Shown piece after piece: positions 3,714-50,420 of a stretch of DNA of 64,000 nt. Position numbers and translations under genes: made by a program. The DNA is from Vermamoeba vermiformis. Taxonomy: Eukaryota. Numbering within the stretch: the stretch's first letter is position 1; each line of letters opens with the position of its first letter. The DNA is taken from contig JBEWZL010000232.1 in the NCBI GenBank assembly GCA_045837725.1, positions 248,001 to 312,000 of the forward strand, written 5' to 3'. The notes beneath the pieces are model-generated. The model searched no databases. It was not told the DNA's origin and saw only the letters and a list, made by a program, of their open reading frames with translations.

Positions 3714-4893
3714 CTACTTCTTGTTGAGGTGATTGCTGTCGTGCAAGTACTTGAACACGGAGCCAAAGTCGAGCGAGGCATAGCCCTGCTGTTGCGACAA
3801 GAGCGTGTACACTTGTGCCGCCACAGAGCCGAGGGGCAGCGGTGTCTTGCTCTCAATAGCGGCATTGAGTGCGAGATTGAGGTCCTTGGCCATCAGGGGC
3901 ACACCAAATCCACCCTTGTAGTCGTTGGATGCAGGCACGCCAGGCACCACACCGGGCACGGGATTGTACACCTCGCTGGACCAGCATCGACCTGAGCTCG
4001 AGTTGACTATCGCCGCCAGTACTTGCGGTGCAATGCCGAGTCGCATGCCGAGATTGAATGCCTCGCTCACACCAATCATGCTGATGCCGAGCAGCAAGTT
4101 GTTGCAGATCTTGGCCACTTGACCCGTGCCATTCGCGCCGCAGTGCACAATGTTCTTGCCCATGCTCTCCAACAAGGGTCGTGCTTGCGTGAAGGCCTTC
4201 TCCTCGCCTCCCACCATGAAAGTCAGCGTGCCTTTCTCCGCGCCACCCACGCCACCTGAGATCGGGGCATCGATCATTTCACCGCGTCCTGCGCGCACAA
4301 TCTCCTCGCGAACCTGCTTGGCAACTGTGGGGTCAATGGTGGAGGCGTCAATGAAGAGCAGTGGCTTGTCACGTGATTTGCTGCCACTGAGCACGGATTT
4401 GGGTCCGTCGATCAGCACAGATTTGACGTGTTGAGAGGCAGGCAACACGGAGACTACAGCCCATATGTCCTTGTGCGCACCTACAGCAGCAGGTTCACTC
4501 ACGCACTGCACAGCACTGCCGTACTCAGCCTGCAGCTTGGCAGTGGCGTTCTGATCGAGATCGTGCACCACCACACCGCGGCCAGACTTGAGTACATTGC
4601 GCACCATGCGACTGCCCATCTGTCCGAGGCCAATGAATCCGACCCACTCTTTGGGGGCTGCAAGGGCAACATTAGCTAAGTTATTTAACGGACACTCCAT
4701 ATTCAATGGCGTCTAATGTCCTTATTTAGAATTCATCTATTATATTTATGCAGGACTATTAATTAATGCAGTGGTCACTGGTGCAGTGAGTCTATATAGA
4801 GTGAATAATCAGACTGCTTAACTCACCAGTAGTATAGCCGCGAGTGTTGCGTGCACGCGATTGTACGACACGTTTGAATATGAGACTCGCCAT
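3714..4893 (-). CDS. HIBADH: 3-hydroxyisobutyrate dehydrogenase, mitochondrial
   Basis: GFIGLGQMG, DAPISGGVGGA, KICNN, SSGRCWSS and FGVPLMAKDL motifs. Presequence exon 4893-4827 (MASLIFKRVVQSRARNTRGYTT) splices in frame. Confidence 0.93.
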
Positions 4894-7310: not shown

Positions 7311-7934
7311 GTGCTACACACAATTTTGCCAGACAGGACCCTGCCTCAAGGCATATGAAGCTACCTGTACCTTGTACTGTCTATGAAGACCTTTTCCAAT
7401 CTCTTCTTGGTAGTGGGGCTTGCCAGCGATGAGTGTCACGGCATTCTGTGCTTTTGCAGTGAACACTTCAAAGTGCAGTAATCTCCCTTAACAATCCCTG
7501 GATGACGAAACTACTGGATGTCCCCTTTGGGACTCTGGGTTGCTACAATGGTCAGAGTGCCCAGCTTCCTTTTCTGTCTGGCAATAGGCAGATAACCTCC
7601 AACAACTGGCGACTTAGCCACTGGACTGGTCGCCCTGTATCTCCAGTATGCTCTAGTAAGTCAGTGGCACAAATGGATTGCAATGAGAAAGTCCTGTTTC
7701 GAAAAATGTGAAGTCATGGATGTTGTGTGCCAGGCAATTGCAAACTCTCGAACTGTAGAAGTTAACGTCAACTCAGCAGTATTACATGGTGCTATTACAA
7801 ATTACGTGCACAAAGTTCAAAAAGCGTCTTGTGTGAGGCTACAAGGCATCTTTGTATGCTCTGAATTATCTTCCAGTGAATTTAGTACTTTTTATTCAAT
7901 ATGACTTCACTGATTATGTTACATTATTTACAGA

Positions 7935-10900
7935 TTATTTAGTTTTCAATTTCTTGCGAATGCTGTTGCGCACACTGATCGTGGACTTCTTTCTCTTCTT
8001 GCTGTTGGGCTCTGTCTCTCCAGCCAACAAATCTCCGCCAAACTTGAGGCGCTCCTTCTCATCGCGCTTTTCAATACGACGTGTGAGCTCATTTTGAATG
8101 GCGTCCAAGAGCTCAGCTTGAATCTTGTACGAGGTGATGTGCTCGGTGTCTGGTGTGATGTACTTGAGGTAGTCGCGCGTCACATCCACCGTGTAGCCGT
8201 GCTCGGTCAAGAAGCTGCGTCGCTTGGCTGCGTAATCAATCTCCTCCGTGTTGGCCGTCACCAGCGAGTAGAAGTAGGCGCGGATCTTGCGCTCTTGAGG
8301 ACGCTGCACACGACCAATGCGCTGTCCCTCTTGCATGCGCGATCCGTCCATGAGTGCCACTTGAATGACCACATCAGCCTCAGGCAAGTCAATCGAGTGA
8401 TCGCCCACACGCGAGAACAGCACGCAGTCCCCGCCCTTGGTGGTGCGGAAGTTCTCCAAGATCTTCTGTCGCTCTTCGTTGGGTGTGTCACCGTCAATCT
8501 TGGGCTTGCGCAACATGTGCGTGTACCACTCGAGACCGAACAAGTTGTCGCAGAACACCATGATCTTGTGATTCTTCTCCAAGTGCTGCTTGATCAGGGT
8601 GTGACACACGCGCGTCTTGTTCGGATTGGTCGCGTACATGAGTCGCTTCTCTTCCAGGCCACTCGCGGAATAATAGGCCTGATTGAACTCGGGTGTGAGG
8701 GGCACGTGCATCTCCAAGCACTGCACGTAGGCGATGTGACCGCGCATGCGCAGCGTGAAGATGTCGAGCTCAAAGATCTTGGGTCCCACCAAATAAGGCA
8801 AGTCCGAGATGAGCGTGTCCTCGCGCACCATGGTGGCAGTGAGTCCGAGCTTGACGTGACAGCGGATCGAGTTGGTCACTTGACGGATGTTGTTCGCAGG
8901 GGCCAAGTGCACCTCGTCCAAGATGAGCAGACCCCACTCGCGCGTCTTGCACTTGGCGATCATATTCAGCGCACTCTCGGAACGGCGCGAGGAGGTGTTG
9001 AACATGCCGTAGGTGGTGATGATGATCGGTGCGCGTGGATTCCACTCGTGACTGTAATCGGAGGTGAATCGACTCACGTGCTTGTCGCTGGGCAGGGTGG
9101 TCCAGCGCAGATACTGCTCCTTCCACTGATTCACACTCAGAATGGACTGGCAGAAGATGATCGTCGGCTTCTTGAGGGCCGCGGTGACGGTGATGCCGAC
9201 CAGTGTCTTGCCCGCACCGCACGGCAGCACCAGCACACCCGAGTGACAGCCCAAGCGACCAGTGGGCACCAAGGGCACATCGGAGCTATTTTTAGCCTCG
9301 CCGTCAGTGTCGAGTGAGCCCGCACGACTGGACATGATGGGCCAGAACAGCTTGAAGCCCGAGATGGTCTGATAGTCGCGCACGCGTGTGGTGCGTTTGA
9401 GATCGATGCTGATGTTCTCGCCCGTGTGCGTGGCAAAGTCGAACTCGTCCACCACGGGATAGCCGAACTGCGCGCAGAACTTCTTGATCTGCTCGGGCTG
9501 ATGCTCGTGCACTTCAAAGCTGTAGTGCAGTTCATTGCCGTTGAGGGTGAGCTGGTAGATCTGCTCGGGCTGGATGACGAGGGCGCGGATGGGCGGGTGC
9601 GACAAGAGGTGCAGCAAGACCTGCTTGTCCGTGCTCTGAATGTAGTACTTGTTGTCGCGCAGCACCATCACTGCCTTGTAGTAGTGTATGTACTCCTCCT
9701 CGCGCAGAATCAGCTGCAGCATGTTGGAGGGCATGGGATTCTGCGCCAGCACGCGGAACAAGCGAATGATCTGCTGCGCGCGATAGCCCTTCTTGTAGGC
9801 CACGTACAGACTGTGGCGCGTCATCACGTACTTGAAGGCCTTGATCGAGACTATCGTGTCAAAGTCCGCGACTGCATCCAAGAGCTCTTTGGCGAGTTGA
9901 AAGCCGCGCTGCAGCGTGAATTCATTGAGCTCGGTGATGCACTGCAGATATATGTCGCACTCCACACCGAACAGAATCGGCTGCGGATTGAAGGGTGTCT
10001 TGATCTCGTCCTCCTCCACCGTGATCTCTTCGGTGGCACTGCGCGACAGCACCGTCGTGTTCGCGCTGCTATTATTAGCACTGCCCGCACTCAGCACTGC
10101 ACCGGGCTCAATCAGCAGACTGGGCTTCTTGTTCGGCTTGGTGGCACCAGTGCGCGCAGGGCCAGTGCCAGCACGTGACAGCGGTTGTTTGCGCGTCTTG
10201 TCGTCCGCACTCGTGGCCTGGCTCGGCTCGGGCACGGGGGTCGCGCTCTGTGTTTGCAACAATTCGTTCAGCTGTTCGCGCAACGGCTGCAACTCTTTGT
10301 CCACCAGGGCCAGCAGTCGCTTGGTGTTTTCTATTTTCAGCGTGTTGTCCACGTGCTCCAATGCACTCTTGCAATATTTGCAGGCATAGCCATTGGGATG
10401 GCGACTGTCCAGCAGAGAGTCAATGTCAATCGAGCGGAATTTGACCTGACAGGTGGGACAATAGAGGATCTGGCCCTTGAGGTCCTCGAGCTCCGTATTG
10501 AGCACGGTGGTCATCATCATCACGCGGTACCGAATCACGTCCAGTGTCTCGTCCAGATCCAGCGTCCACGTGTTGAAGGTGCGCGCACTCGCGGTCACAC
10601 CTTTCTGCTCGCACAGGGTGCGTCTGAGCAGCTGATGATTGAGCAGTCGCGTGAGTATGATGCCGATCTGCTTCGGTGTCAGCAGCAGCATCTTGCTCAG
10701 ATCTGACTCGCGGTACACTTTCTGTTCCAGGAAACAGCTCAGCAACAGCGCCACTTCGTCGTCGTAGAACCAGTGTGCCACCAGCTTGAGCAGATCCGCG
10801 ACTTTATCGAACTGTTCGGGATTGGCCTCGATGTTGTGGTACATGTACTGCTTCTTCTTCTTGTTCGGATCTGACTCGCCCTCCGCACCCTCGCCGGCAC

Positions 10901-11734
10901 TCTCTTCAATCTTGAGCACGTGATTGCTCTCCTTGCCGTCGCTCGTCACGTTGTTGAACAGCTGCACCTGTCGCGCCAGTGCCTCGAGCTGCGAGTTGTA
11001 CTTGCTGCGCTTGACACGTGTCTTGCGCGCACTCTTCTTGTCCTCGGCACGCGCACTCGACTCCACGCGATTCACGGCCAGTTGACTCGCGGGTATGCCC
11101 TTGCGCTTCAACACATTGCGCAGCTCAGACAGCTCCACGCGCTTCACATCGCCCCACACCTTCTTGAGCTCGTCGGGCAGGGTCCACATCTGAACTTCGC
11201 GCGTCTGAGGCTCGGGGAATATGACTTCGTGCTTGCTGGAACTGTGCACTATAATCAAAATCTTGTGCTGTTTGTATAGGGCCTGCACAATACGGGTTAA
11301 TAAACGAATTAAATGTTGTTATTTGACACTCAAGGGCAAATCTGAGAAAAAGAACAACTAATTCTTGAATATTTGCAAGTGACGTAATAGTGCGAGGTAC
11401 AATGCAAATATGTATTCGGAGAATTAATTACCTCAATATCGTCCTTAATAGTCACGTAGGAGGACAACACTTTGTCATCGAGCACAAGAGGTTTTTCTTC
11501 AATGTATTTTAATATATCCTCTTTGTTGTTAACAGTACTCTCAAATTTATATGAGAACTTCTTCTCCGTGGCATCGAAATTTAAATATTCATTTTTTTTG
11601 AGTAATTCCAGCAAATCAGGAGTGATCTTGACTTTGGCTTCGAGCTCTAATTCAGGGAGCGTGAACCATTTGCGACTCTTTTTGAGTACATTGACAACAA
11701 ACACTTGAGCGGTGGCATTTGATGGTTGGCTCAT
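7935..11734 (-). CDS. TFIIE-beta / TFIIE-alpha / XPB(Ssl2)-like helicase fusion protein (~1216 aa)
   Basis: Exon 1 11734-11432 (101 codons), phase-0 GT-AG intron 11431-11283, exon 2 11282-7935. Beta-like: LLKKNEYL..KKFSYKFESTVNNKEDILKYI..LPDELKKVWGDVK..VLKRKGI. Alpha-like: LLKLVAHWFY..RESDLSKMLLLTPKQI..LDVIRYRV..CPTC..CKYC. XPB-like: HSLYVAYKKG, LPCGAGKT, DEVH, LGLTATMVRED, QEGQRIGR. Confidence 0.85.
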
Positions 11735-11864
11735 ATGTGGTGTTGTTCTCTAAAGTATTGAGCGAATGACTGGTAGCAGTGCGCTGTATTTATTTATTTC
11801 TGCACGCGCAACTAGTTGGCAACTATTCTCATGCTGGAGTGAGCGACACATTATCTGCAGAGTC

Positions 11865-13819
11865 ATGTGGTCGTTAGTGCGCAAGTCTGTAACACCTGTG
11901 CAGCGCTGTGAGTTCAACTTTCAGATCGCCAAAAAATTAATTACAACAATATTCATAATATTCATAATAATAATTTGCATTTATTAGTCCTTAGGAGCAA
12001 CAAGTCGCAAATAACACGCAGCGTGCACGGTAATTAACAACGTAACTTGACGCGCCTTTTAACGCTCCCAGCAGAACACCAGCCGCGCGAGTGGTCAGAG
12101 TCTGACTCAGGTCACGTGACTGGCGTGCGCGTCATCAACTCGCTGCTCCACCACGACAGACTGGTGCCACTCAAGACACGTGAGCCCAACACGATCACGT
12201 GGTATACCTGTGGCCCGACGGTGTACGATCACGCGCACTTGGGACACGCGCGGAATTATGTGACAGTAGACATCTTGCACCGCATATTGAAAGAGTTTTT
12301 CCGCTTCGATGTCCACCACGTGCTCGGCATGACAGACATTGACGACAAGATTCTCAATCGCGCACGTGACTTGCAAGTGTCACCTGTCACCCTGGCACGT
12401 CAATTCGAGCGCGAATTCTTTGCAGACATGCGCGCAATGAATGTGCAGCCCCCGAGTGTGGTGACACGTGTCTCGGAGCACGTGCCCGAGATTCAACAGT
12501 TCGTGGAGCAGATTACCAAAAATGGCTATGCGTACAAAGCAGCGAGTGACAGCATCTACTTTGACGTGACAGCCTTTCAACAGCAGCACGTGTACGGCAA
12601 GCTCAAGCCAGAGCTCACACTCGTGCCCGAGTCAGATCCAGATCTCACCGCGCAGCAGCACCTCCACGACAAGCGCGCACCACGTGACTTTGCGCTGTGG
12701 AAGTCGCAGGACGGCGGTCGACCAGGGTGGCACATTGAGTGCGTGGCCATGTCGCATGCCATATTAGGCAAGCACTTCGATGTGCACAGCGGTGGCATTG
12801 ACTTGAAATTTCCGCACCACAACAACGAGGTCGCGATTGCCGATGCGTATTTGAGTGGTGACAGGTGCCAGCACGCGTCAGAGCGCGAGTGGGTGAACTA
12901 CTTTGTGCACATTGGCCACTTGAACATCAAGGGCCTCAAGATGAGCAAGTCCCTCAAGAACTTCATCTCCATCAAGGTACGTACTCGCGGTACTGCGTTG
13001 TGCGCCATTCACTGAACCACGCATTCACTGAACCAGGAGTATCTGAGTCAGTACGGAGCGAATGAATTCCGTCTGTTCTGTCTCATGTCGCCCTATCACA
13101 GCACCCTCGACTACACCGAGCAGCGTGTCGTGGATGCGCGGCAGATCTTCAAGCGATTCGACGAATTCTTTTCTTCGCTCAATCACGTGATTCGTCGCGC
13201 GGAACAACAGGAGCACGTGTCACATCGCTGGTACGCCGAAGAACACGCCCTCCACGCGTCCCTGGTCGAGTGTCAGCAGTCCGTGCGCAGGTCGCTGAGT
13301 GACAACTTTGACACGCCCCTCGCGATCAGTGCGCTGCTGCACCTCACGACACGCACGGCACACTATCTGCACGCCACGGAACTGCGCGGACACGTGCTGC
13401 TGCTCATCACCCTCGTGCGGGACTATGTCTCGCGCATGTTGACCACATTTGGACTGCAGGGCTACGATCACGTGACGGTGCAGCGCGGCAGTGCATCACG
13501 TGACCAGCAGCAGTTCACGCAGCTGCTCGATGTCTTGGTGCACGCGCGACACGAACTGCGCGCTGAACTGTTGCACGCACTCAAAGCGAGCAGCGAGTCA
13601 CGTGATCAAGCACGTGATCTCATTCAACGCCTGCTGCCACTCGTGGACAAGATGCGCGATGAGCTGGTGCCGCTCGGCATCAAGCTGGAAGACAGCAAGG
13701 GCAGCACGGTGATCAAAGAGATCAGATCTGATCCGCGTACTGAAGCTGCGCTGCAACAAATGCGCGCCAAGAGCAAACAACGCAGTGAAGAGCTCAAAGA
13801 GCCGCACAAGCAGTCCTAA
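11865..13819 (+). CDS. CARS2: Cysteinyl-tRNA synthetase, probably mitochondrial
   Basis: WYTCGPTVYDHAHLGH, GRPGWHIEC, GGIDLKFPHHNNE and KMSKS motifs. Basic presequence MWSLVRKSVTPVQR from two small upstream exons. Confidence 0.9.
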
Positions 13820-14682: not shown

Positions 14683-17600
14683 ATGAGTCGATCACTGTAT
14701 ATACCACTGCTCAATGGTACTGAACAAGTCGCAGTGCCGCTCGATGCATTGCCTGACGCTAGCGAGTTCATTCAACTCTTGCGAGATGAGAAGTGCTCCA
14801 TCCGCACTTGGCTCAAATGTGCAGTAAGTGGTGTATTTATTAGTATTTATTTATCTACATTCAGCCACAATTCTCGTGTTTGTAAGCAATAGCACGGAAT
14901 TGATAATATTATTAAATTATCAAAAAATTCACTTTAAAATGCACAATAAATGCAGTGCTTCCAATTAGCACGAAAATACTGCATATAGCACTCACATAAC
15001 AATATGCATCTATTAATAAATTGCTAGTCTGCCTACAATCGTCAAGGCAAGTTCGAGGCCTATCGACAGCTGTTAACGGGTCTGCAAGCTGAGCGTGGTG
15101 AGTATCTAATTGACGCACACACAGCACGCAGCAATTGATTATATATCGCTGCTGAATAGGCGAGCAGTTGAACAAAGAGTCCAAAGCAGATCGACTCGCG
15201 GTGCTGAATGCGCTCGCTTCCATGTACACACAACTGGCGCGCAAAGAAAAAGACAACAAGAAGCGCGAAGAATATTACAATCAAGCCACACAACACTACA
15301 ACCAAGCTGATCGCATTGATGTGCACGAAGAACAGACCTGGATCGGCAAAGGTGTCACGTACTTGGCGCGCGGTCAGACAGAGCGCGCTGAATTTCAATT
15401 CGAGACCGTGCTGCAGCAGAATGCGCGCAACATTGCCGCACAACTCGGCAAGGCGAGTGTGCAGATGGAGAAGAAGAACTATCACCACGCCCTCGCGAGT
15501 TATTCCGCCGTGCTGGAACAGCTGGGCAGTGTGGGGCAAGGTCAGTACGCGAGTCACTACGAGGTGGAGGCCCATCGACACGTGTTCACCACGGCACTGC
15601 TCGGACTCGGCGAGGCGTACTGGCGACTCAATCACAGCGAGCGCGCACGAGCCTGCTTTGAACGCGCGAGTCAGCTCGACGACAGCTTGGCCCTGCCCCT
15701 CGTGTACCGCGGTCTGCTCGATCTGAATGTAGCGGCGCGTCACGAGGACAAGCACGCGCGCAACAGATACGTGGTGTCGGCAGTGACGTTGTTCAAGCGC
15801 GCGTACGATCTGCACGCCCAGAACAGCGTGGCACTGAATCACCTGTCGAGTCATCTGTTCAGCAAGCGCGACTACGACAAGGCACGCACACTGGCACTGC
15901 AGGCCTATCATCAGACCAATCAGAAGAAGATACAAGCCGAGGCCTGCTACAACATTGGCCGCACCTATCACGCAGAGGACAATCTCGATCAGGCCTTCAA
16001 GTACTACACGCAGGCCATTCAGCTCTGGCCCGATTACGTGCTGGCACTCTACACGCTGGCACAGCTGTACATTGCACGCAACGAACTCGACAAGGCGACA
16101 GATCTGCTCGACAAGGCCACCAAGCACCAACAGAGCGACACGACTGAAGTGATCAAGCTACTCGCTGAGCTCTGTGCTGCACGTGAGGACGAGACCCGCG
16201 CACTGAATCTGTTGAAGCACGTGACCAATCAGATCGAGTCACGTGACACTGCGGATGTGGTGCTGTGGCTGGCACGTGCACAACTCACACAGCGTCATGA
16301 TCCGCACGATGCACTCGTGGCCTATCAGCGCGCACGTGATCTGCTGGGTCTGGACAAGGACGACAGCAGTGCCCTGACCAGTCAGACCCTCGCCGTGCTC
16401 AACAACAGTGCCGTGCTCAAACACTTGCTGCACGACGATCAGGGTGCAGAACAAGATCTAAAGCGCGCACTGAGCAGCGATGAAGAGCAGTGGATGAGTC
16501 CTGCGCGCGTCACACTGGCCTACAACCTCGCGCGACTGTGGGAGGACGAGCACCACACGCGCCGCGCACACGATCTGTACAAGCGCATATTGAACGAGCA
16601 CCCAGCCTACTTGGAGTGCTACTTCAGACTCGGACTCATGGCCCGTGCTCGCGGTGATATATTGGAGGCCGGCGAGTGGTTCAAAGAGCCAATGAGTGTG
16701 CAGCCCAACGATCTCGGGGCCTGGACGCTCTGGGCCAATATGAACCTCGAGAAAGGCGAGCTCAACACGGCGCAGAAGAAGTTTGAGCGCGTGCTGGCAG
16801 TGGACAAGAACGAGCCCTACGCCAATGTGCAGCTCGCCACTGTGTACGCCACTGCAGCCCATCAGACTGTGGTGAGTGACAGCGCGAGTGAGACACGCCG
16901 CGACAAGCACTTGAAGAACGCGCTGGACTTTTATCATCGCGCACTCAAGCAAGACCCCAGCAACATCTACGCCGCTGTGGGTGTGGCCATCGTGTTTGCT
17001 GAGCGCAAAGAATACGCGACAGCCATCGACCTGTTCAATCGCATTCGCGAACAGATCACCGCTGCCAACAAGCAGAACAAGACGCAGTGGGACATTGAAG
17101 AGCCGCACCTCAATCTCGCGCACTGCTACATGCACACCAAGCAGCACGAGAAGGCGGTGCTCTTGTACGAGATGTGCTCGAGCAAGTTCCACCACAACAA
17201 GGACGCAGCACATCTGTTGTACCTCGCCCACGCGTACTTCAAGAACGAGCAGTACGAGCACTGCTTCAGAGCGCTGAACAAGGCACTCTTCTTGAGCCCA
17301 CAGCTGCTGGACTCGTGGTACGGCATGGCAGTGTGTCTCAAAGAGTTCGGAGTGCGCGCGTTGATGCAGTTCCCGCGCAACAATGTGTCGCAAGGTGCAC
17401 TGCTCATCGCGATCAGTGAGGTGCGTCAGGCCATCAAGTCACTGGAAGTGGCAGCACCGATATTTGAACGATTGCACTCGATGAAAGATGAGCGCAGCAA
17501 GCGCATGTTCAGCACGACCAAGTGCGCACTGTACGAGCGCATCTGCAGCAACAATGTCGAGCAGTTGAAAGAGAACCTGAACGAGCTGGAGAAGCGGTTG

Positions 17601-18520
17601 TCTGACGCAGAACAAAGTGCGCGCGAACGTCAAGAGAAAGCCCGTCAATTCATGGAACAAAGGCTGCGCAATGAAGAAGAGAAGGCGCGCTTGGAAGAGG
17701 AACAACGAGCACGCGAAGAAGAACTGGCGCAGAAGGTACTCGAGGAGAGTCGTCAATTGAAAGAACAATACAAGCGACTGCACGAACAAGAGGAGCAGTT
17801 GAACAACTTGGCAGCTGAAGAGGACGAGGGCAAAAGGGTAATTAGACTTAATATTTTTGACTGTATTATCGCGCCATATTAATCGCATTGACCTTCAGAA
17901 ACGCGGCAAGAAGAAAAAGAAAGCAGAGGACGACGAAGAAGAGATTGTATATGACACTTCAGCACCTGAATATGCTGAGCCTACTGAACCACTCACTGCC
18001 GAGCAACAAGAGGGTCGCAGATTGGTACGTAGCATTGCTCGATAACTCGGTACAATAGGCACTCATCGCACTACAGAGTGCACTGGATGAAATCAAAAAG
18101 AAGCGAGGAGCCAAGCGCCCTCGTGACAGCGAAGAAGAAGAGGGCTCGAGTGAGCGCAAGAAGAAGAAGAAGCACAAGTCCAAGGACAAGAAAGACAAGA
18201 AGGAGAAGCGACGCGAAAAGAAGCGCAAGCGACGCGAGGAGGAAGCAGAGGAGGGCGAAGAAGAGCAGCGTAAAGAGAAGCGAAGGCGCATTCGCAAGCA
18301 GACCGACGACGAGTCGAAAGAGAGTGACTTGGAACTGGATCTGTCGAATGAAATTTCGAGCGTGAGTGGCGACAGACACAACGAGATGAGAGACGACGAG
18401 GACAATAAGGAGAGGGAACGAGGACAATAAGGAGGCAGGTGATAATGTTAACGAGGACAATAACGAGGACAATGGCAACCAAGTCCCGCAAGAGGAGCCC
18501 GCGAATGCCGAGACCACTGA
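14683..18520 (+). CDS. CTR9: PAF1 complex subunit CTR9
   Basis: N-terminus SLYIPLLNGTEQVAVPLDALPD...LRDEKCSIRTWL, long TPR array, DPSNIYAAVGVAIVFAE, HLNLAHCY, charged coiled-coil tail; multi-exon. Confidence 0.88.
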
Positions 18521-18575: not shown

Positions 18576-20399
18576 TTACAATTTGCTGAGCACTGTCTTC
18601 ACGTGCGTGTACTCTTGCAAGGCATATTCACCCAGATCACGACCAGCACCGGTCTGTTTGGCCCCTCCGAATGGTGCGTTGTACTTGACAATGTTGTACG
18701 TGTTGATCCACACCAGACCTGACTTGACGCGCTGATGACACGAGAGTTAATAAGCACCCCATTCAATGGGTAGTGTAGTGTCCCTTACTTGTGCAAATTT
18801 GTTGGCTTTGGAAATGTCTTGGGTCCACACCGCTGCTGCGAGACCGTACGGCGAGTCATTGGCTGCACATCAATTGGTGAGACTAGTGGCCACTACGCTC
18901 GAATACTGCACTCACCCTTGGCCACGGCATCTTCCAAGTCCTTGAACTTGAGCACACTCAGCACGGGACCGAAGATCTCTTCGCGTGCAATCGCCATGTT
19001 GTCAGTCACTTCGCTGAACACCGTGGGCTCCACGAAAAATCCTTTGTCGCCAATGCGCTGATGCAGTGATTAATAGGGCACTGCACTGCAGTAGTGACAC
19101 GACTCACCTTGCCACCGCACATCAATTTGGCACCCGCTTGTTTGCCCTTATTCACGTAATCGAGCACTGCAGCACGTTAGACATAGCCACTGCCATTGAG
19201 GCACGTACCTTTGTTGAACTGTTGCTGGTCTATCAATGGACCATTCATCGTGTTCGCAGCGAAGGGGTCGCCAACCACAATCTTGCGCGTCTCTTCAACC
19301 ACGCGCTGCACAAACTGGTCGTAGATCTCCTCTTGCACGTAGAGTCGACTGCCTGCACAACAGTTCTCGCCCATGTTAGCGAACAGGGCCATGGCACACT
19401 CGGGTGCGGCCTTGTCCATGTCACAGTCTGCAAACACAATGTTGGGACTCTTGCCTCCGAGTTCCAAGCTGACTTTCTTCAAGTTGGATTGTGCGCTGTA
19501 CTGCATGATCAAGCGACCAGTCTGCGTGCTGCCAGTGAAGGCAATCTTGTCCACGTCACTGTGCAGGGCCAGTGCCTTGCCTGCAGTCGCGCCAAAGCCA
19601 GTGACGACATTGAGCACACCGCTGGGCAGACCAGCTTCAAGTGCCAGTTGACCGAACAAGAGCGCTGTGAGCGAGGTCTGTTCCGCTGGCTTCACGACCA
19701 CTGTGCAGCCCACCGCGAGGGCTGGTGCGACTTTCCAGGTCAACAACATGAGCGGATAGTTCCACGGCACAATGATGCCGCACACACCAATCGGCTCGTG
19801 CGTGGTGTAGCACAAGTAGTCGCGCTCAGTGGGGATTGTCTTGCCGTGGTACTTGTCCACCCAGCCTATCACGTGTCAGTCCAAACATGTCACGCATTCA
19901 GTGAACACACGTGCACGTACCAGCATAGTAACGCACCACATTGGAGGCCTGCACGACATCGTAGCCCAGCACCGCTTGGAATGGTTTGCCAGAGTCGAGT
20001 GCTTCCACTTTGGCGAGCAATTCGCCGTTCTGTTCAATCAAATCTGCGAGTCTAATAATGTGGTCATTATTATAGCGCTATTAATGTATATGTAGTCTGT
20101 AATTGATTGAAGGGACACAAATTGAAATGTAAAATATTTGCAAAATGAGAGTTAATGCCAACTCACTTGAGCAACACCTTAGCTCGTTCCATAGGCAACA
20201 TATTGCGCCAAGGACCAGTCTCAAATGCAGCTCTAGCCTCCTTCACTGCCAGATCTACATCTGCTGCATCAGCTTCAGCGAGGGTTGTCAACACAGCGCC
20301 AGTGGCTGGATTGAGTGTTTCAAATCGTTTGTTGCTCGCAGCCTCGCGCCAAGTGCCGCCAATGAGCAGCTTCGTGTTCACTTTGCTGAGTGCGTCCAT
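18576..20399 (-). CDS. Aldehyde dehydrogenase (ALDH1/2-like)
   Basis: [52 protein letters not shown]; multi-exon. Confidence 0.95.
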
Positions 20400-26087: not shown

Positions 26088-27147
26088 TTTGTTGTAGTTG
26101 TATAAATATTGTACTGACTTTGAATAGTATTTAAGTCATCAACTTGTCAGCGGATCAATTAATCGATCTAGATTACTTTAGTGCCTTACTTACGGTTCCG
26201 TAGCAATTTAAAATATGCCTTATCACAACACGCGTGTACTCCGGCCCATCAACAAATCGACGCAGTTAATTTGAGCAGTGGAACTTCGATCAGGGTTTTC
26301 GTTGGCGCAAAGAAAATACATTAAAGAACGCAATCGCAGTTGCGTGCAGTGTTTTTTTATTTCATTATCAGAACACTAGTCCACTGTAGCAGCACACAAC
26401 TGCAATCAATACTCCAATTGTATTTGCGCAGCTATTACAGTCACTGTAACGGTCAATAGTCTCGATCTCAATTCAGACTACAACGCACGAGGACTGATAG
26501 TTCAAATACCACGTTGTGTATATATAGTTGCTCAGTAAGTATTGTCCATGCTGGCCTCTCGCATCGGCGAGACGGTAAATTAACGTAATCTTTCTGTAAA
26601 TTTAGCTGCTAGCGTGCTGGCAGTACTCTTTTCCATCATACATATTAATAATATGGTTTATATGTTTAATACTAATTTTTGAAATCTAATTTCAAGTTTT
26701 ATTTTATGGAATGAATAATAATAATTTTTGGCGACAGATCAAGGCGTAACTTTGACCCTGCACTCACTGGCCATTATTTTTGTTCACTGATAATATGCAC
26801 TTGTTTGTTTAGATGGAATGTGCAATCAGACCAAGTAAGCGCGCTTTTAGATTTGCTGCTAAAACCCCGAAGAAATTTGATTATAACGGCGATCAAATTT
26901 ATATGCAAATGGGTACAACACACTTTTTCAATCTGTTTGTACTCCACTATGCAGCCGTGCAGAGAGCTGAATTGGAGCGGATGATCAGCCCACGAAATTT
27001 CACTAATTATTGCAATTATTTTTTGTTTTCTGGTCACAATTTCAATGTTTAGTGATTGGATCTGTGCTTGCAATAGTGAGATCTGACTAACAATTGACAA
27101 CCGTTGCAGGCATCGATATATTTCAAGCGGGCAGATCAGGCACATCA

Positions 27148-29046
27148 ATGAGCAGCAATATCTCACTTCACAACTACACTTACGTACAAAAACACACCAT
27201 CGACACACGACCGCGCGCAGGCACTGACGGACTCATGACCACGCAGCTCGGGCAGCGCAAGGTACGCGAGGCTGGCACGCCCTCGCCGACCCCCAAGAAG
27301 AAGTTGCACACCTCGCGGCCCAATTCACCGCCGACTGCGTATGGCCGCGATCGCTCGCTGACAGAGGTGATTGAAGTGCGCGAGGACGATGAGAGCATGG
27401 ACGAGACCGAGCCCTCTGACGGCGCACCGGTCACTGCCCCGCACCTCACCTTCTACGACGCGCGCATGAGCATGCAACACGCGCAACTCTCGCTCGAGAA
27501 TGGCGTGCAGCACGTGACAGTGAGCAGTTCACTGAACGAGTTAAATTACATGACTGGCACCGTGCCACACCCCATGGCTGAACACGCAGTCTATTATCCG
27601 CAGCACGGTGCTGGTCCGACATCCACAGCCGGCACAGGTGCAGCGCTGCTCAATGCATCGCCGCTCAGAGCACAGCAGCCCTCACCGCGCTTGCAGTCGA
27701 GCACGAGTTCGATGAGCGACACCTCTGCGCCACTGCGACCACGCATCACTGCACCTGTGAACATGGCGACCATGGGACTCGTGCAGACCTACACCAATCT
27801 GACCAAGAACTTCAAGAAGATGTTGCGCAAGACACAGCAAGCCAAAAAGAACAACTACTACAACGTGGCCATTGGCGAAGTGCTCAACAGCAAGTATGAA
27901 GTGCTCAGTGTGCTCGGCAAGGGCTCGTTTGGACAAGTAGTCAAAGCCAAGCTCGTGGGGCACAGCGAAGAGGATCGCGAGGCCCTGGTGGCTATCAAAA
28001 TCATTCGCAAGAGCACGCCCTTCCTCAATCAGGGCCGACAAGAGGTTCGCATATTGAAGTTACTCGATCAAGTCAAATTTGATCGCAGCAACAATTTTCT
28101 GGGTGAGTGTCCTTATTCTCTGTATTTAATGCAGCCCAATTATTAACCGCACCGCAGTGAATATGAAAGAAGAATTCATGCACGAGGGACACTTGTGCAT
28201 TGTATTTGAGCTCTTGTCGAGTTCGCTGTTGGAGCTCGTGAGCTGGACCAACAACGACGAAGTGCAGGGCCTCTCACTGCGCATGGTGCACAAGTTCAGT
28301 CATCAGCTCGTCTGTGCCCTCGCCACTCTGCGCACCCTGCAAGTGATACACTGCGACTTGAAGCCCGAGAACATTGCCCTGCTCAATCCCAATCGCGCGC
28401 ACATCAAAGTGCTGGACTTTGGTTCTGCGTGTCAGCCCTGGGAGAATCAAGTGAATGTAAGTCGGACTCGGCTCTGTACCTCTCATGGCTGTGACTAATG
28501 CGAGTGCAGCACTTCCCGTACATTCAGAGTCGCTTCTACCGCGCGCCAGAGATATTGTTGGGCACGCCGTACAGCTTTCCCATTGACATGTGGAGTCTCG
28601 GCTGCGTGTTGGTGGAGCTCTACACCGCGCGACCACTGTTCCCTGGCCGCGACAGCATTGAACAGCTGTACAAGATTATGGAGGTACTCGGCCCTCCTCC
28701 GAACAACATGCTCGAACAAGCTGTCTATTTGAAGAAATATTTTGTCAAGAAGGGCAACGAGCTGTTCTTGAAAGAGGTATGCGAGCGAAGCAGATCTGTC
28801 CCGCAGTCAGCTAATCAATGTGTTCATTAGGACTATCCGTTCAAAGCGAGGAATCTGCGCGAGTTAATATTCTTTAAGAATCATTTAGAAGAGCAAAAAC
28901 ATTTAGAGAACTTTCTCGATCTCGTTACGCGCATGCTGGTCTACGATCCGAATGCGCGAATATCACCAACAGAGGCCTTAAACCACCCATTTATATTATA
29001 TGGCCCCGGTATCAAACAGCCTGCCACCAACCCTTTCAACAAATAA
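27148..29046 (+). CDS. DYRK-family dual-specificity protein kinase
   Basis: [48 protein letters not shown]. Start ATG uncertain. Confidence 0.9.
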
Positions 29047-29455: not shown

Positions 29456-31182
29456 ATGCAGGCTATCAGTTCTAAATTCGATCAGTTGGATTCGCATTCA
29501 GAATCAAATTACTTCAGAAGTCCTAATACAACTCCTGTTCACCACTCAGTATGTTGCATATCAATTAGCATACCTATATTTCACCATACGATAATTTTCC
29601 TGCTTTTTTTTTCGTCGCTGACCAAATCAAATCAGGTTTTGGAAGATCTTCCCTCAGGTTACTGGGATATTTCACAACCTTCTTATAATCAACCACAAAC
29701 TTTCCGTCAACAACACTCTAATATCTACAGCAAGTAAGTTAACGCATCGGTTAAATCAACCTTTCCATAATCAAAAAGATTCGCTTAACCGTTGTTCGGT
29801 ATTATAAAACGATCAATCCGAATGACATTTAATCGACCATCTCTCCAATTAACTCACATTTGAGTTACGAAAAACATTTTCTTGAATCCAAGTTGCACGA
29901 TCTAACCGAATTTGTTTCAGTCCTGAGCCGTCTTACTTCAAGCCCAAGCCGATCGAACAATACAGCCAACCAATGCAGTACCCGTACAACACCAGCTCTC
30001 CTCGTCCTATCACTCAATTGACGCCAGTAGCTTATGCTCAATCTCCTCAAGGAGGCTTTGTTCAAATCCCCGTGGATCAGACCTTGATGAACATCTTGCT
30101 GGCCCAGTCCAAGCAAGTCCCTCAGTACTCACCGATGGTCTCCTACGTCCCTCTCTCATCTTCAGCCCCCTCAATGGTCTCAGTGCCCATCAATCTTGCC
30201 ATCCCTGCCAGTTCCAGTGCCCCACGCGCTCCTCAAATCAAGCTCGAAGCTGTCACCAAGAAGGCTTTGCACGTGCGCAAGCCCAAGAGCCAAACTGCCT
30301 CGCCTTTGTCCACCAGTCCCACTTCACCTGGTGCTGTCAAGCGTGCGCGCAAAGTGCGTCCTAAGGTACAAGCTACCAAGGGCTCAATGCAATGCCAAGG
30401 CATCAACCGCAAGAAGGGCTGTCAGTGCAAGAACGCAGCACTGATGGAGTACTTTGGTCCTCGTCCGCTCTACTGCGCTGAGCACATTGAACAAGATCCC
30501 AACTGCTACTACACTAAGTGCAAGTCTCCTCACCAAAAGACCCCTGGTGACAACAAAGGCTGCCGCGAAGTGGTGCTCAAAGAGTTCGAGTACTGCCACA
30601 AGCACTTCCAAATGTACACGAGCAAGATCCAAGGCAATGATGCGTGTTCTTTCTCCGTCGAACGCTTGCGCCGTGTTGAAGACTTGTTGCAGCAATTGGA
30701 ACAAGAGGCTGCTCACGCCAAGAAGACAGATGCGGATCTGTATCAACGCAAGAACAAATTGATCCCCAAATTCACTGAGATGAGAATGATGTTGATCAAG
30801 CGCGCTGCTGAATTGGGTGCTGATCAAGCCCTGCTCAACAGACCCACTGAGTTGGCCACACCTCTGAGCCCCAGCAGCAGCATGGTCAGCTCGCCCTCCG
30901 ACATGTCACCTAACTGCGCGGGTGTTGACGACATCAACGCAGAGAGCCAAGAGACCTATGAGAACTCCATGTCCGACAACGACTCGTTGGAGGATGTGTT
31001 TGCTACTGCACACGACATGGACTCCCCTGATGCTATTGAACACCAATCTCACCACAACATTGATATGTGGCACGTAGACGAGTCTACTGCTCGAGGTACG
31101 TAGTTGGATCTGAGTGGTTGTTATGCACGAATATTTAACTTAAGACCAATTAGTAGATGAGAACACTCACTTCGTATACTAA
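29456..31182 (+). CDS. Putative nuclear protein with two C-C-C-H (WRC-like) zinc fingers and a coiled coil
   Basis: CQGINRKKGCQC..LYCAEH and CKSPHQ..KGCREVVLKEFEYCHKH, preceded by basic KRARKVRPK; Pro/Ser/Gln-rich N-terminus and acidic tail. Confidence 0.7.
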
Positions 31183-39290: not shown

Positions 39291-39826
39291 ATTCTTCCGG
39301 TTATAATTTAATTATTCTCCATTTAATTGCTTGTCACTGTCGAGCTCGAAATGTAAGTTTAATTTTGGCTATCGTTTCACACTTAGTAAAATTATTTTAT
39401 CAAATTTATAATTTCGAGATATAAATCTCCCCCGTAACCGACGACCTTGGCAACCGCCACGAAGTGGAAGATAGAGGATAGATGATCGCCGATTCCTCCC
39501 CTTGAACGATACGAAAAACCCCGCGATCGGAGTCTCATCCGCAACCGAAACCGATCTGTGCATGCTGAATCAACAGCCGCTTAAGATAAATGCATATGAC
39601 ATCATATTTTAGAGTGTAATCGCGCAAAGCAATAAGGCGTAATACTTTTCAGATCAACCGAAGTTCATTTTCGCTTCTCTCACTGATTGCCTTCGGCGCG
39701 ACTAACCACTATATTAATATTGGTTAAGAGTTATTTTACTCTAACAATGAGAGTTGTTGCGTGCTGTTGCTGGGTGGAACATACAACACAATTTTATTTC
39801 GTTAGTTTTTTATTGAACACGCAGCC

Positions 39827-48604: not shown

Positions 48605-50420
48605 TTAATTCAAAGTTCGATACATCTTTTCGACTTGATCCACCACTCGGCCGAGCTCCGTATTCAGTGCTTGGATCTTCTCAATCGGATTGTCTTCCAA
48701 TGTAGCTAATGTAACTTGAAGGTCAAAAGTTCCTGCAGAACAACAATTAGACTTCGTATTAATTCGTTCTACTATTAACAATTATCTTACTATACGCGTC
48801 GATGAGTCTATTGAATTCTTTCTTCAGCTCTGAGAATTTTTGTTCTGTGGTCAGCGCAGAGGTGCTGTTCAGTGCCGGCGCTTTTGGTGCCATTGGTGGA
48901 AGTGGCGGGAGAGGAGCGTTATTGCTGTCATTAGTTTGTGGCGATCCGAGTGGTGGGCGAGGTTGTACTGGCTTTTTCACATGTGACAGCTTGGGCAAAG
49001 TGAACGTGTTGGTTGTGGTAGTTGCCGTCGCTGTTGCCTTCGGAGCCATTGGAGGAGGTGGCGGAGGAAGAGGGCCATTGCTCGAGTTCGTATTGGCAGT
49101 TGGAGCAGCAGTGGTGTTGGTTCCAGCTGATCCAAACTGAGGACTTTTCTTCGGAGCTGCTCCGAAGGTTGACACTTTTCCGCCAAAGTTCGTTTTCGGC
49201 GCAGTTGCTACGACGGTACTCTTGGGCATCATTGGTGGAGGAGGGGGCGTAGAGATATCGCTCGGTGGTAGCACACTCGCGACACTGCCCGTATATGCAA
49301 TCTTGACTGGGGCTTTGGGGATCGGAGTAGAAGCCGCTTGACTTGTTTGAGCCACTTTGACGGACGGTTTAGTGCCGAGCTCGCGGTGCTTGCGTAGCAC
49401 TTTGGTGACCCACTCCCACTTGTTAGCAATGGCGAAGTCGAGCGCAGTCTCCATCTTTCTGTTCTCGAAGTTGAGGTCCGTGCGTGGGTCATTGATGAGC
49501 AGTTCAGCTGCTTCGTCCCACCCGTACGTATTTGCAACGTACATGAGCGCTGTTCTGCCGTGCTTGTCAGTCGCATTGACGTCGGTGCCAGGGTGTTTCA
49601 ACAAGACTTCAATCATCTTAGCCTGAGCCTCCATCTCTCTGTCTCGGGTCCATGACGCTCTACAGGCGGCGATCAGTGGTGTCTCGCCATTGGCATCTCT
49701 GACATTTGGATTCTTGACGTGCGGCAACAACATCTCAGCCAGCTTGGGCTTCCAGCTATTAATGAGCACGAAGAGCGGGTAGTTATATTCTTTGGTCATT
49801 GGCAAGTCTACGATGTCTTTCTCGATCAACGTTCGGACCGCGGCAATAGGCTTGTCTCCTTCACCATGCATCAAGTCGTGTAGCAAGGCCTCGCCAAGGC
49901 CAGCGGACAACTTGACGCCTTTCTGTTGCACTGCAGCATCTAGAACGCTCAGCAAGTCTGCACCCCACTCGTGGATGTTCGCAACCGCTTTGATGTGGTA
50001 GATCAGCTTGCCGTCCGCATACTCGCTCTCGCAATAGTTGTCAATGCTGTAGTTAGGAAATAGAACCAACACGCGCTTTGATGTAGCGTCCTTAAAGCGT
50101 TGCAGAAAAGTTGGATCTTTGGACGACCACCACTCTATCTTTTGAATCAGCGTCGGAATGATGTCTTGGGATAACAAATAGCTCAAGCTCTCATTAGGGG
50201 CATACTCTCCTTGATTATAGAGTGCCCACATGTCCGTTTCGATAGTCCATGCACCAGGTGCAGTCGCTTGAGCTAACTTCGTCATCTGCTTCAACAGTTG
50301 TTCTTGGTCCTCTTTGAAGTTTTGTCGCTCCTCATCCGGCAAGCGAGAGTCATTGCACCAGCTCTTAATTATGGCTAACATGTTCAAATTTGAGCTTGTC
50401 TGGGCTTCGTCTTTCAAATT
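48605..50420 (-). CDS. Ankyrin-repeat protein with poly-proline tracts and C-terminal coiled coil (5' end uncertain)
   Basis: GETPLIAAC, GRTALMYVA and ETALDFAI repeats; PPPPPPM tracts; last exon ends at TAA 48607-48605. Confidence 0.75.

What the first reader, a model, noticed from the sequence alone, without database searches (positions are those of the whole stretch)
7935..11734. Single gene fusing TFIIE-beta, TFIIE-alpha and an XPB/Ssl2 DNA translocase
Seen: one intron-free frame (11282-7935) contains, in order, a TFIIE-beta-like C-terminal region (~11282-10990), a TFIIE-alpha-like winged helix with a CPTC/CKYC zinc ribbon (~10800-10250), a low-complexity linker, and a complete XPB-like protein (~9995-8100). 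A clean phase-0 intron (11431-11283) adds an upstream exon encoding the TFIIE-beta-like winged helices. The beta/alpha and alpha/XPB junctions therefore do not depend on splice prediction. Known: TFIIE-alpha, TFIIE-beta and XPB are normally separate genes, and TFIIE helps recruit TFIIH, whose XPB opens promoter DNA. Inference: this may be a self-contained promoter-opening module that tethers the translocase to the Pol II clamp through TFIIE. The acidic TFIIE-alpha tail that binds the p62 PH domain seems to be replaced by the linker to XPB. I know of no described example, but I ran no search.
Basis: partly seen in the sequence, partly recalled or inferred. Interest (0 to 1): 0.93.

Follow-up and report, generated by a model that had tools for sequence, protein, structure and literature searches.

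The report
Single-chain TFIIE fused to XPB
An amoeba gene, confirmed by spliced RNA, joins both subunits of the transcription factor TFIIE to the DNA-opening motor XPB in one protein; several amoebae share this arrangement, and none of the papers I searched describes it.

Summary
One minus-strand frame (7935-11318) is open for 1127 codons. A 149-nt GT..AG intron (11283-11431) joins it in phase to a 101-codon first exon starting at ATG 11734, giving 1216 aa. Assembled contigs from 3 of 3 contig runs skip exactly this intron, and one 3519-nt contig crosses every domain junction. A 1213-aa Vermamoeba vermiformis transcript ORF has the same junction.

Profile, sequence and fold searches identify three parts in order:
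- TFIIE-beta: WH1, WH2 and the alpha-binding C-terminus.
- The N-terminal half of TFIIE-alpha: winged helix, 4-Cys ribbon and linker helices.
- A complete eukaryote-type XPB after an ~82-residue disordered linker.

The TFIIH-binding C-terminal half of alpha is absent. The same architecture occurs in Rhizamoeba and Nolandella transcripts and in unnamed environmental contigs. The XPB parts form their own clade. Eight literature searches found no description.

Most likely this is a working single-chain TFIIE that carries the promoter-opening translocase. I could not test whether these amoebae also keep separate TFIIE and XPB genes.

The parts
11432..11734 (-). Exon 1 (101 codons, ATG at 11734). 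Encodes TFIIE-beta WH1 (about 11546-11704) and the first part of WH2 (11432-11530).
   Evidence: Sequence read and translated. Pfam TFIIE_beta 29.5 bits against cut-off 28.1, aa 11-63. The same N-terminus occurs in P0168 and P0155.
11283..11431 (-). Intron, 149 nt, GT..AG, phase 0. It interrupts the WH2 domain.
   Evidence: sequence. Skipped by contigs of 3 of 3 contig runs laid. Junction ...KDD[IV]E|AL[YH]K... in the transcript ORF P0168.
11214..11282 (-). Start of exon 2: the rest of TFIIE-beta WH2.
   Evidence: Pfam TFA2_Winged_2 on aa 69-124 of the spliced relative P0168 (22.8 bits, below cut-off 26). 6 of 7 family members hit at E <= 0.1, best 7.3e-8. The family profile aligns to yeast Tfa2 132-311 at E 1.4e-13.
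10944..11213 (-). TFIIE-beta C-terminal region (helices at exon-2 aa 37-45, 51-60 and 97-113, plus a basic stretch), the part that binds alpha in TFIIE.
   Evidence: The family profile reaches Tfa2 residue 311 of 328 and human TFIIE-beta residue 282 of 291. It also matches 5gpy_B, the beta piece crystallised with alpha (E 0.0064). pLDDT 80-93 for aa 31-70.
10869..10943 (-). Short acidic/low-confidence connector between the beta and alpha parts.
   Evidence: pLDDT below 50 at aa 113-134. The connector is 23-54 residues in the 10 family members measured.
10473..10868 (-). TFIIE-alpha extended winged helix.
   Evidence: Pfam TFIIE_alpha 31.9-33.6 bits, cut-off 22.9. phmmer to human GTF2E1, E 1.1e-12. 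Foldseek: the top 16 hits are all TFIIE-alpha chains, best E 3.8e-11.
10353..10472 (-). TFIIE-alpha zinc ribbon (CPTC at aa 275-278, CKYC at aa 301-304).
   Evidence: positions. C275, C278 and C304 are invariant and C301 at least 90% conserved in the 12-row family alignment. Aligned to the human ribbon.
10242..10352 (-). TFIIE-alpha E-linker helices (aa 314-330 and 332-347). Recognisable alpha ends here.
   Evidence: Model helices with pLDDT about 90. The alignment to human alpha ends at residue 210.
9993..10241 (-). Low-complexity, predicted disordered tether between alpha and XPB (about 82 aa). It stands where the TFIIH-binding half of alpha would be.
   Evidence: pLDDT 28-37 over aa 349-430. 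The equivalent linker is 53-247 residues in the 10 family members measured, 74-88% polar or small residues.
9258..9992 (-). XPB N-terminal domain and damage-recognition-like domain, with a lineage-specific low-confidence insert at aa 651-675.
   Evidence: Pfam Helicase_C_3 46.7 bits, aa 476-581. The model aligns over about 650 columns to XPB/Ssl2 chains of TFIIH structures. The insert is present only in P0168 and P0155 in alignment A1.
8034..9257 (-). XPB ATPase lobes 1 and 2: GAGKT at aa 689, DEVH at 789, TAT at 815, RED at 820, motif VI QRIGRVQR at 987.
   Evidence: Pfam ResIII and ERCC3_RAD25_C (220.5 bits). Motif positions. The motifs are invariant in the 10-row family alignment. Foldseek TMt up to 0.90 to human and yeast XPB.
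7935..8033 (-). Basic C-terminal tail and stop codon (7935-7937).
   Evidence: The C-terminus is identical in P0168 and P0155.

Best explanation
Shown: the gene is real, spliced and expressed as one mRNA, and it is conserved. It encodes a 1216-aa polypeptide that is a single-chain TFIIE covalently tethered to a complete XPB translocase. The TFIIE portion consists of beta WH1, beta WH2 and the beta C-terminal alpha-binding region, followed by alpha's winged helix, zinc ribbon and E-linker helices. A flexible linker of about 82 residues connects it to XPB.

Inferred mechanism: the TFIIE module folds in cis like the alpha/beta heterodimer and docks on the Pol II clamp and stalk. XPB, still seated in a TFIIH core through its N-terminal domain, binds downstream promoter DNA and pumps it towards the polymerase to open the promoter. 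The covalent tether replaces the non-covalent contacts that the C-terminal half of alpha normally makes with TFIIH (E-dock, E-bridge, E-floater, acidic domain with p62 and XPB). That half has been lost.

Open: whether this is the cell's only TFIIE and XPB, or a transcription-dedicated copy beside a second XPB.
For: Gene and transcript:
- 1127-codon open frame and a canonical phase-0 intron.
- The intron is skipped in contigs of 3 of 3 contig runs, and one contig crosses all junctions.
- A 1213-aa V. vermiformis Trinity ORF (P0168) and a 1216-aa JGI protein (P0155) have the same junction and the same ends.

Domain identity:
- Beta: Pfam TFIIE_beta above its cut-off. The family profile hits yeast Tfa2 at E 1.4e-13 and human TFIIE-beta at E 3.9e-7.
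- Alpha: Pfam above its cut-off and human GTF2E1 at E 1.1e-12. By Foldseek the top 16 hits are all TFIIE-alpha chains (best E 3.8e-11), against about 1e-4 for Pol III C82.
- XPB: 220-bit Pfam hit. The top 26 Foldseek hits are eukaryotic XPB/Ssl2 chains, TMt up to 0.90, and archaeal XPB is far weaker.

Selection:
- Of the 40 strain differences listed (3 more not shown), 33 are synonymous, 5 non-synonymous and 2 outside the CDS. They are spread over all parts.
- The four zinc-ribbon cysteines and all ATPase motifs are conserved across the family.

Conservation of the architecture:
- Full beta+alpha+XPB proteins occur in Nolandella (P0169, 1169 aa), in unnamed P0013, P0010 and P0165, and in P0007 (labelled Schistocerca). 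Rhizamoeba P0006 has an incomplete N-terminus.
- Of 7 long environmental ORFs scanned, 6 have a TFIIE_alpha hit at E <= 0.01 (4 above the cut-off), 6 have a beta-type hit, and 7 have XPB.
- Of the 150 best library hits, 9 carry both TFIIE modules. Eight of these have the clade's motif VI and the ninth, P0018, is cut before the helicase. None of the other 132 hits without that motif carries either module. Several of the 9 were also rows of the HMM training alignment.

Loss of alpha's TFIIH-binding half: with passages of PMC5980561, PMC7111264 and PMC2275666.
Against: - Nothing here shows the protein itself, its binding to Pol II or TFIIH, or any activity.
- The XPB part belongs to a divergent clade. 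Motif VI reads GSRMQExQR[IV]GR[IV]QR, against the near-invariant GSRRQEAQRLGRILR of the canonical hits. The clade sits on a 0.6 substitutions/site stem. It falls outside 117 canonical XPBs when the tree is rooted on prokaryote-like XPBs, though the canonical group has only 65% support. This pattern would suit a specialised paralogue.
- Passages of PMC4138998 say that trypanosomatids, plants and 'a wider range of protists' have two XPBs. A second, canonical XPB and free TFIIE may therefore exist in this genome. I could not look, because no genome is held.
- Two clade members, P0016 (749 aa) and P0084 (789 aa), show no TFIIE part. They may be cut gene models or truly unfused.
- Three of the 8 long relatives scanned had no Pfam TFIIE_alpha hit at E <= 0.01, although they align through the alpha region.
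Confidence: 0.6

Rival explanations
1. Specialised paralogue. The genome also holds ordinary, separate TFIIE-alpha, TFIIE-beta and XPB genes that do general initiation and repair. The fusion is an extra TFIIE-like/XPB-like machine with a narrower or different job, such as a subset of promoters, a life-cycle stage, or a repair or transcription-coupled process.
For: The XPB clade is divergent, with altered motif VI and a long stem. It is placed outside the canonical XPBs in a rooted FastTree. There is precedent for two functionally split XPBs in protists (passages of PMC4138998).
Against: - All three modules keep their defining motifs and are under purifying selection: 33 synonymous against 5 non-synonymous strain differences.
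- The TFIIE parts score best against genuine TFIIE, not against Pol III or archaeal relatives.
- No stand-alone TFIIE or canonical XPB from a named tubulinid turned up. The searches able to find one were weak, however.
Confidence: 0.28
2. Precursor or multi-product gene. The long mRNA exists, but the working proteins are separate. Proteolysis in the disordered linkers, or internal transcription or translation starts, would yield free TFIIE-like and XPB proteins.
For: Two long, low-complexity, predicted-disordered linkers lie exactly between the modules. Contigs cannot show transcript ends or minor isoforms.
Against: - The fusion and its order are kept across relatives only 31-46% identical, while linker length varies from 53 to 247 residues.
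- Alpha has lost the very region that would let a free TFIIE bind TFIIH. That loss is easier to explain if the link is kept.
- The second Nolandella Trinity isoform (P0011) is only a cut copy that starts inside the XPB N-terminal domain. It is not an XPB-only form.
Confidence: 0.08
3. Artefact: a mis-join, or read-through of neighbouring genes in this assembly.
For: None found.
Against: The same continuous frame occurs in independent sources. These are another NCBI-derived contig (P0003), Logan contigs (P0004), JGI contigs up to 552 kb (P0005 cluster), three EukProt transcriptomes and at least five further environmental contigs. RNA-type contigs from three studies also cross the junctions.
Confidence: 0.01

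Closest known systems
TFIIE (human GTF2E1/GTF2E2, yeast Tfa1/Tfa2) working with TFIIH XPB/Ssl2 in the Pol II pre-initiation complex
   Same: The same domains: beta WH1, WH2 and C-terminal alpha-binding region; alpha winged helix, zinc ribbon and E-linker; XPB N-terminal domain, damage-recognition-like domain and two ATPase lobes with the RED motif. TFIIE is known to recruit and orient TFIIH and to touch XPB lobe 2 (passages of PMC5980561).
   Different: Three separate genes and proteins there, one polypeptide here. The N-terminal region of beta before WH1 is missing. The C-terminal half of alpha (E-dock, E-bridge, E-floater, acidic p62-binding domain) is missing and replaced by a disordered tether to XPB. 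XPB motif VI deviates from the canonical sequence.
Protists with two XPBs, e.g. Trypanosoma brucei XPB (transcription, in TFIIH) and XPBz/XPB-R (repair only)
   Same: A divergent XPB lineage next to the canonical type, with possible division of labour between transcription and repair (passages of PMC4138998).
   Different: No TFIIE fusion is described there. Here a second XPB has not been shown. Badjatia et al. 2013 (PMC3864625), which lists the other protists, is not held, so I could not check whether amoebae are among them.
Permanently attached TFIIE-like modules: Pol III subunits hRPC62/hRPC39 (C82/C34) and archaeal TFE-alpha/beta
   Same: TFIIE-type winged-helix modules that are stably built into, or tightly tied to, the transcription machine rather than recruited as a free factor (title and abstract of PMC4495717 seen in the listing). 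Both appear as weaker fold matches.
   Different: Those are not fused to a translocase. The alpha part here matches TFIIE-alpha far better (E 3.8e-11) than C82 (about 1e-4) or archaeal TFE-alpha (about 3e-3).

Membership tests
TFIIE-beta (GTF2E2/Tfa2) | First winged helix (core domain, Pfam PF02186) | tested here: met
   29.5 bits on exon 1 and 30.2 bits on P0168, against cut-off 28.1. 4 of 7 family members hit at E <= 0.1.
TFIIE-beta (GTF2E2/Tfa2) | Second winged helix (PF18121) followed by the C-terminal alpha-binding/basic region | tested here: met
   PF18121 hits 6 of 7 members, best 7.3e-8, but scores 22.8 bits (below cut-off 26) in the Vermamoeba protein. The family profile aligns to Tfa2 132-311 at E 1.4e-13, to human beta 111-282 at E 3.9e-7, and to 5gpy_B at E 0.0064. 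Exon 2 alone gives no Pfam hit because WH2 is split by the intron.
TFIIE-alpha (GTF2E1/Tfa1) | Extended winged helix (PF02002) | tested here: met
   31.9-33.6 bits against cut-off 22.9. PDB phmmer E 1.1e-12. Foldseek top 16 hits are all TFIIE-alpha.
TFIIE-alpha (GTF2E1/Tfa1) | Four-cysteine zinc ribbon and E-linker helices | tested here: met
   CPTC/CKYC at aa 275/301. The cysteines are conserved in the family. Two helices, aa 314-347, at pLDDT about 90.
TFIIE-alpha (GTF2E1/Tfa1) | C-terminal half with TFIIH-binding elements (E-dock, E-bridge, E-floater, acidic p62-binding domain) | tested here: not met
   The alignment to human alpha stops at residue 210 and to yeast at 190. What follows is 82 residues at pLDDT about 30, then XPB. 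So it is a truncated alpha, not a full family member.
XPB/ERCC3/Ssl2 | SF2 ATPase core with Walker A, DEVH, RED motif and motif VI, and the ERCC3_RAD25_C domain | tested here: met
   PF16203 220.5 bits. Motifs located and invariant in the family. Motif VI keeps Q, R, G and R but differs from the canonical wording.
XPB/ERCC3/Ssl2 | Eukaryote-type N-terminal domain plus damage-recognition domain before the ATPase | tested here: met
   PF13625 46.7 bits. About 650 aligned columns and TMt 0.84-0.90 to XPB chains in TFIIH structures.
TFIIH core subunit (assembled with p52, p8, p62, XPD) | Physical association with p52/p8 and the rest of TFIIH | not testable with these tools
   No genome or proteome of the organism is held. 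Only retention of the N-terminal domain (which by established knowledge binds p52) speaks for it.

The most novel reading that the evidence does not exclude
In tubulinid amoebae TFIIE no longer exists as a free factor. Both of its subunits and the promoter-opening translocase are one polypeptide, which is the only TFIIE and the only transcription XPB of the cell. TFIIE and TFIIH would then arrive at the promoter as one pre-joined unit, and the TFIIE-alpha/p62 handshake has been replaced by a peptide tether. Repair would have to use either this same tethered XPB or a separate repair XPB.
Probability: 0.35. Interest if true: 0.88.

Novelty: new variant of a known kind. Interest (0 to 1): 0.77.

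Why it matters
TFIIE and TFIIH are textbook separate factors, and how TFIIE positions and stimulates XPB is still being worked out from cryo-EM structures. A natural fusion that is expressed and conserved is a 'Rosetta stone' for that question. It indicates that the TFIIE-XPB connection is the one that matters, and that the p62-binding half of alpha can be dispensed with once a tether exists.

It also offers a ready-made single-chain TFIIE-XPB for biochemistry and structural work. And it raises a question about how XPB is shared between transcription and nucleotide excision repair when it is permanently tied to an initiation factor. All of this can be tested in cultivable amoebae.

Tried and rejected
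- Whole-genome search of the window's own assembly: no genome is held. The sole-copy question therefore stays open.
- Word-index protein searches for stand-alone TFIIE-alpha (one 104-aa fragment) and, with a family alignment, for more fusion members (the same 3 close relatives). These added nothing. They are no evidence of absence.
- Cluster look-up of the 10 canonical XPB representatives nearest to the fusion: all were unnamed environmental sequences. No amoebozoan canonical XPB could be identified.
- ESM Atlas: only ordinary XPB clusters. No fused cluster appeared among those shown.
- Exon 1 alone against PDB sequences: Tfa2 only at E 0.42. The family profile was needed.
- First 140 aa of exon 2 alone against Pfam: no hit, because WH2 is split by the intron.
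- RNA runs: no RNA holder is listed. The one raw-read RNA run laid (X23, about 2% of it read) gave 0 reads, which is no test.
- Nolandella 'isoform 2' (P0011) as a possible XPB-only product: it is a cut copy that starts inside the XPB N-terminal domain.
- Earlier notes of this scan: nothing on this genome or on this kind of protein. They hold only bacterial XPB operons.
- Badjatia et al. 2013 (PMC3864625) is not held.
- Supplements of papers were not consulted. Fig. S6 of PMC4138998, which compares XPB pairs, may bear on the paralogue question.
- Rejected: Pol III C82/C34 or archaeal TFE identity of the N-terminal module, because those matches are much weaker.
- Rejected: mis-assembly, because many independent sources agree.
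Full report
**Observation.** The minus strand carries an open frame of 1127 codons from stop to stop (7935..11318).

Reading the sequence shows an ATG at 11734 and 101 codons down to 11432. A GT follows at 11431/11430 and an AG lies at 11284/11283. The intron is 149 nt and in phase 0. Exon 2 runs from 11282 to the stop at 7935-7937 (1115 codons).

**RNA evidence.** I laid public runs on 7700-11900.
- The Logan contigs of all three contig runs laid (X1, X2, X5; three studies, three organism labels) skip exactly 149 bases at the predicted intron. The skipped ends are CT..AC on the + strand, which is GT..AG on the gene's strand.
- These contigs give no depth upstream or downstream of the gene (7700-7840; from 11789 on in X1 and X2).
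- One X5 contig of 3519 nt runs from 8028 through the alpha and beta parts and the splice into exon 1. A contig is an assembly and cannot show transcript ends.
- The fourth run, of raw reads, gave no reads and is no test.

Independently, a 1213-aa ORF from a Trinity transcriptome of Vermamoeba vermiformis (EukProt, P0168) is 92% identical to exon 2. It has the same first residues, the same junction and the same last residues. So does a 1216-aa JGI protein, P0155.

From this I infer that the window comes from a Vermamoeba-like tubulinid amoeba.

**Identity of the three modules.**

Beta:
- Exon 1 passes Pfam's own threshold for the TFIIE-beta core domain (29.5 against 28.1 bits).
- A profile of the N-terminal parts of seven full-length family members hits yeast Tfa2 residues 132-311 at E 1.4e-13 and human TFIIE-beta 111-282 at E 3.9e-7.
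- The same profile also matches the beta fragment crystallised with alpha, 5gpy_B (E 0.0064).
- Pfam's second winged helix (TFA2_Winged_2) hits 6 of 7 members. In the Vermamoeba protein it covers aa 69-124, so it spans the splice junction. This explains why exon 2 alone gave no Pfam hit in its first 140 aa.

Alpha:
- Pfam TFIIE_alpha scores 31.9 bits against a cut-off of 22.9.
- phmmer against PDB sequences gives human TFIIE-alpha 16-210 at E 1.1e-12 and yeast Tfa1 7-190 at about 3e-9.
- An AlphaFold model of the first 360 aa of exon 2 (pLDDT 73.6, pTM 0.68) finds TFIIE-alpha chains as its 16 best Foldseek matches, best E 3.8e-11. Archaeal TFE and Pol III C82 are far weaker.
- The CPTC/CKYC cysteines are conserved in the family.

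XPB:
- ERCC3_RAD25_C scores 220.5 bits, together with ResIII and the N-terminal Helicase_C_3 domain.
- Walker A, DEVH, TAT, RED and motif VI are all present and invariant in the family.
- The full exon-2 model (pLDDT 78.9) aligns over about 650 columns to human and yeast XPB/Ssl2 chains of TFIIH structures, with TMt up to 0.90. Archaeal XPBs are much weaker matches.

**What is missing.**
- The beta part starts at WH1 and lacks the N-terminal region of Tfa2 and human beta.
- The alpha part ends after the E-linker helices.
- In yeast and human TFIIE-alpha the elements that bind TFIIH lie further C-terminal. The E-dock is at Tfa1 200-250. The E-bridge touches XPB lobe 2 and p62. The E-floater is at Tfa1 351-373. 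The acidic domain binds the p62 PH domain. I saw passages only, in PMC7111264, PMC5980561 and PMC2275666.
- Here that half is replaced by about 82 residues of pLDDT about 30 that run straight into the XPB N-terminal domain.
- In ten family members this tether is 53-247 residues and 74-88% polar or small residues. The beta-alpha connector is 23-54 residues.

**Conservation and spread.**

A scan of 1.84 billion representatives gave 5663 hits at E <= 0.001. Of the 150 best:
- 17 carry a distinctive motif VI (GSRMQExQR[IV]GR[IV]QR), against the canonical GSRRQEAQRLGRILR.
- 9 carry both TFIIE modules. Eight of these also have that motif, and the ninth (P0018) is a model cut before the helicase.
- None of the remaining 132 carries a TFIIE module. 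Several of the 9 were rows of the HMM training alignment, so their match is partly by construction.
- The other 9 motif-bearing hits are 245-789 aa, either fragments or cut models. Among them are P0016 and P0084, which may be truly unfused.

Named members are V. vermiformis, Rhizamoeba saxonica and Nolandella sp. AFSM9, all from EukProt transcriptomes. By my knowledge of taxonomy, not checked with a tool, all three are tubulinid amoebae. One further protein is filed under the locust Schistocerca gregaria.

A scan of JGI metagenome contigs returned further single ORFs of 1187-1370 aa. Of 7 scanned, 7 have XPB, 6 have a TFIIE_alpha hit at E <= 0.01 (4 above the Pfam cut-off) and 6 have a beta-type hit. 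GC content ranges from 0.34 to 0.58.

Against relatives only 31-46% identical overall, the ATPase lobes keep 47-68% identity and the TFIIE parts 13-49%.

Between strains, 33 of the 38 coding differences listed are synonymous.

**Phylogeny of the XPB part.**
- In a FastTree of the helicase core (133 rows) the 15 motif-bearing rows form one side of a branch, with support 100 and a stem of 0.6.
- I then added five environmental fusions and ten XPBs from long, prokaryote-like metagenome contigs as root. That origin is assumed, not verified.
- The 20 fusion-clade rows stay together (support 99). They are sister to 117 canonical XPBs, whose own monophyly has only 65% support. One long-branched row, P0143, falls outside.
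- This fits either an old paralogue or a fast-evolving orthologue drawn to the base by its long branch. FastTree joins long branches readily, so I do not read more into it.

**Mechanism.**

Shown: one expressed, conserved reading frame with a complete TFIIE DNA/Pol II-binding portion and a complete XPB, joined by flexible linkers, with alpha's TFIIH-binding half lost.

Inferred from established knowledge of the pre-initiation complex:
- The TFIIE module folds in cis as the alpha/beta heterodimer and binds the Pol II clamp and stalk.
- XPB sits on downstream DNA within a TFIIH core, since its N-terminal domain, which by established knowledge binds p52, is kept.
- The peptide tether substitutes for the lost non-covalent TFIIE-TFIIH contacts.

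I put about 0.6 on this.

**The main open point.** I could not test whether the cell also has free TFIIE and a canonical XPB.
- No genome is held.
- The word-based searches and the cluster look-ups did not reach named amoebozoan proteins.
- Passages of PMC4138998 state that trypanosomatids, plants and 'a wider range of protists' have two XPBs, with a repair-only copy in T. brucei. This makes a two-XPB arrangement here quite possible.
- The paper that lists those protists is not held.

**Novelty.**
- Eight full-text searches were run. They combined TFIIE, XPB/ERCC3, TFIIH, fusion, Amoebozoa, Tubulinea, Vermamoeba, domain architecture and related terms. None found a paper that describes a TFIIE-XPB or TFIIE alpha-beta fusion.
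- In one search, the 15 papers listed (of 41 found) that mention the amoeba terms have zero occurrences of XPB or TFIIH.
- The library lacks most subscription journals, and supplements were closed.
- The proteins themselves are already in public collections under generic names.
- I therefore class this as a new variant of a known system. It is not a new kind of system, and the architecture, as opposed to the sequences, is not 'already known'.

**Verdict.** Its interpretation is plausible and partly supported. The finding deserves follow-up.

Noticed in passing
P0007, not in the window: A full-length member of the fusion family (1227 aa) is filed in NCBI as an uncharacterised protein of the locust Schistocerca gregaria, on a 342,834-bp contig. 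All other named members are amoebae. That contig may therefore be DNA of an amoeba-like associate or parasite rather than of the insect.
   Followed up: no
window 9258-9332 (exon-2 aa 651-675): A low-confidence insert of about 25-30 residues sits just before the Walker A motif of XPB. It is present only in the Vermamoeba-level sequences (P0168, P0155, window) and is absent from all other family members and from canonical XPBs.
   Followed up: partly
window 12038-13819 (+): A cysteinyl-tRNA synthetase gene is transcribed divergently from the fusion gene, about 300 bp from its start codon. Two same-frame ORFs (12038-13015 and 13016-13819) are separated by a stop, probably inside a small intron.
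   Followed up: no
window 9740-9890 (exon-2 aa 464-525): The family HMM of the TFIIE-beta part gives a second, weaker match inside the XPB N-terminal domain (beta profile positions 27-80). This may be a winged-helix-like resemblance or chance.
   Followed up: no
window 3714-4712 (-), 15156-17882 (+), 37593-39311 (-), 44178-45197 (+), 48759-50438 (-): The neighbouring long ORFs are ordinary eukaryotic genes: a 3-hydroxyisobutyrate-dehydrogenase-like protein, a 908-aa TPR protein, an LRR protein, an FtsH-type AAA/M41 protease fragment and an ankyrin-repeat protein. Three other long ORFs (19018-20055, 27091-28146, 29886-31103) have no Pfam hit at E <= 1e-5.
   Followed up: no
P0016 and P0084: Two members of the fusion-type XPB clade (749 and 789 aa) start at the XPB N-terminal domain and have no TFIIE part. 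They are either cut gene models from intron-bearing DNA or truly unfused relatives. If unfused, that would bear on how the fusion arose.
   Followed up: partly
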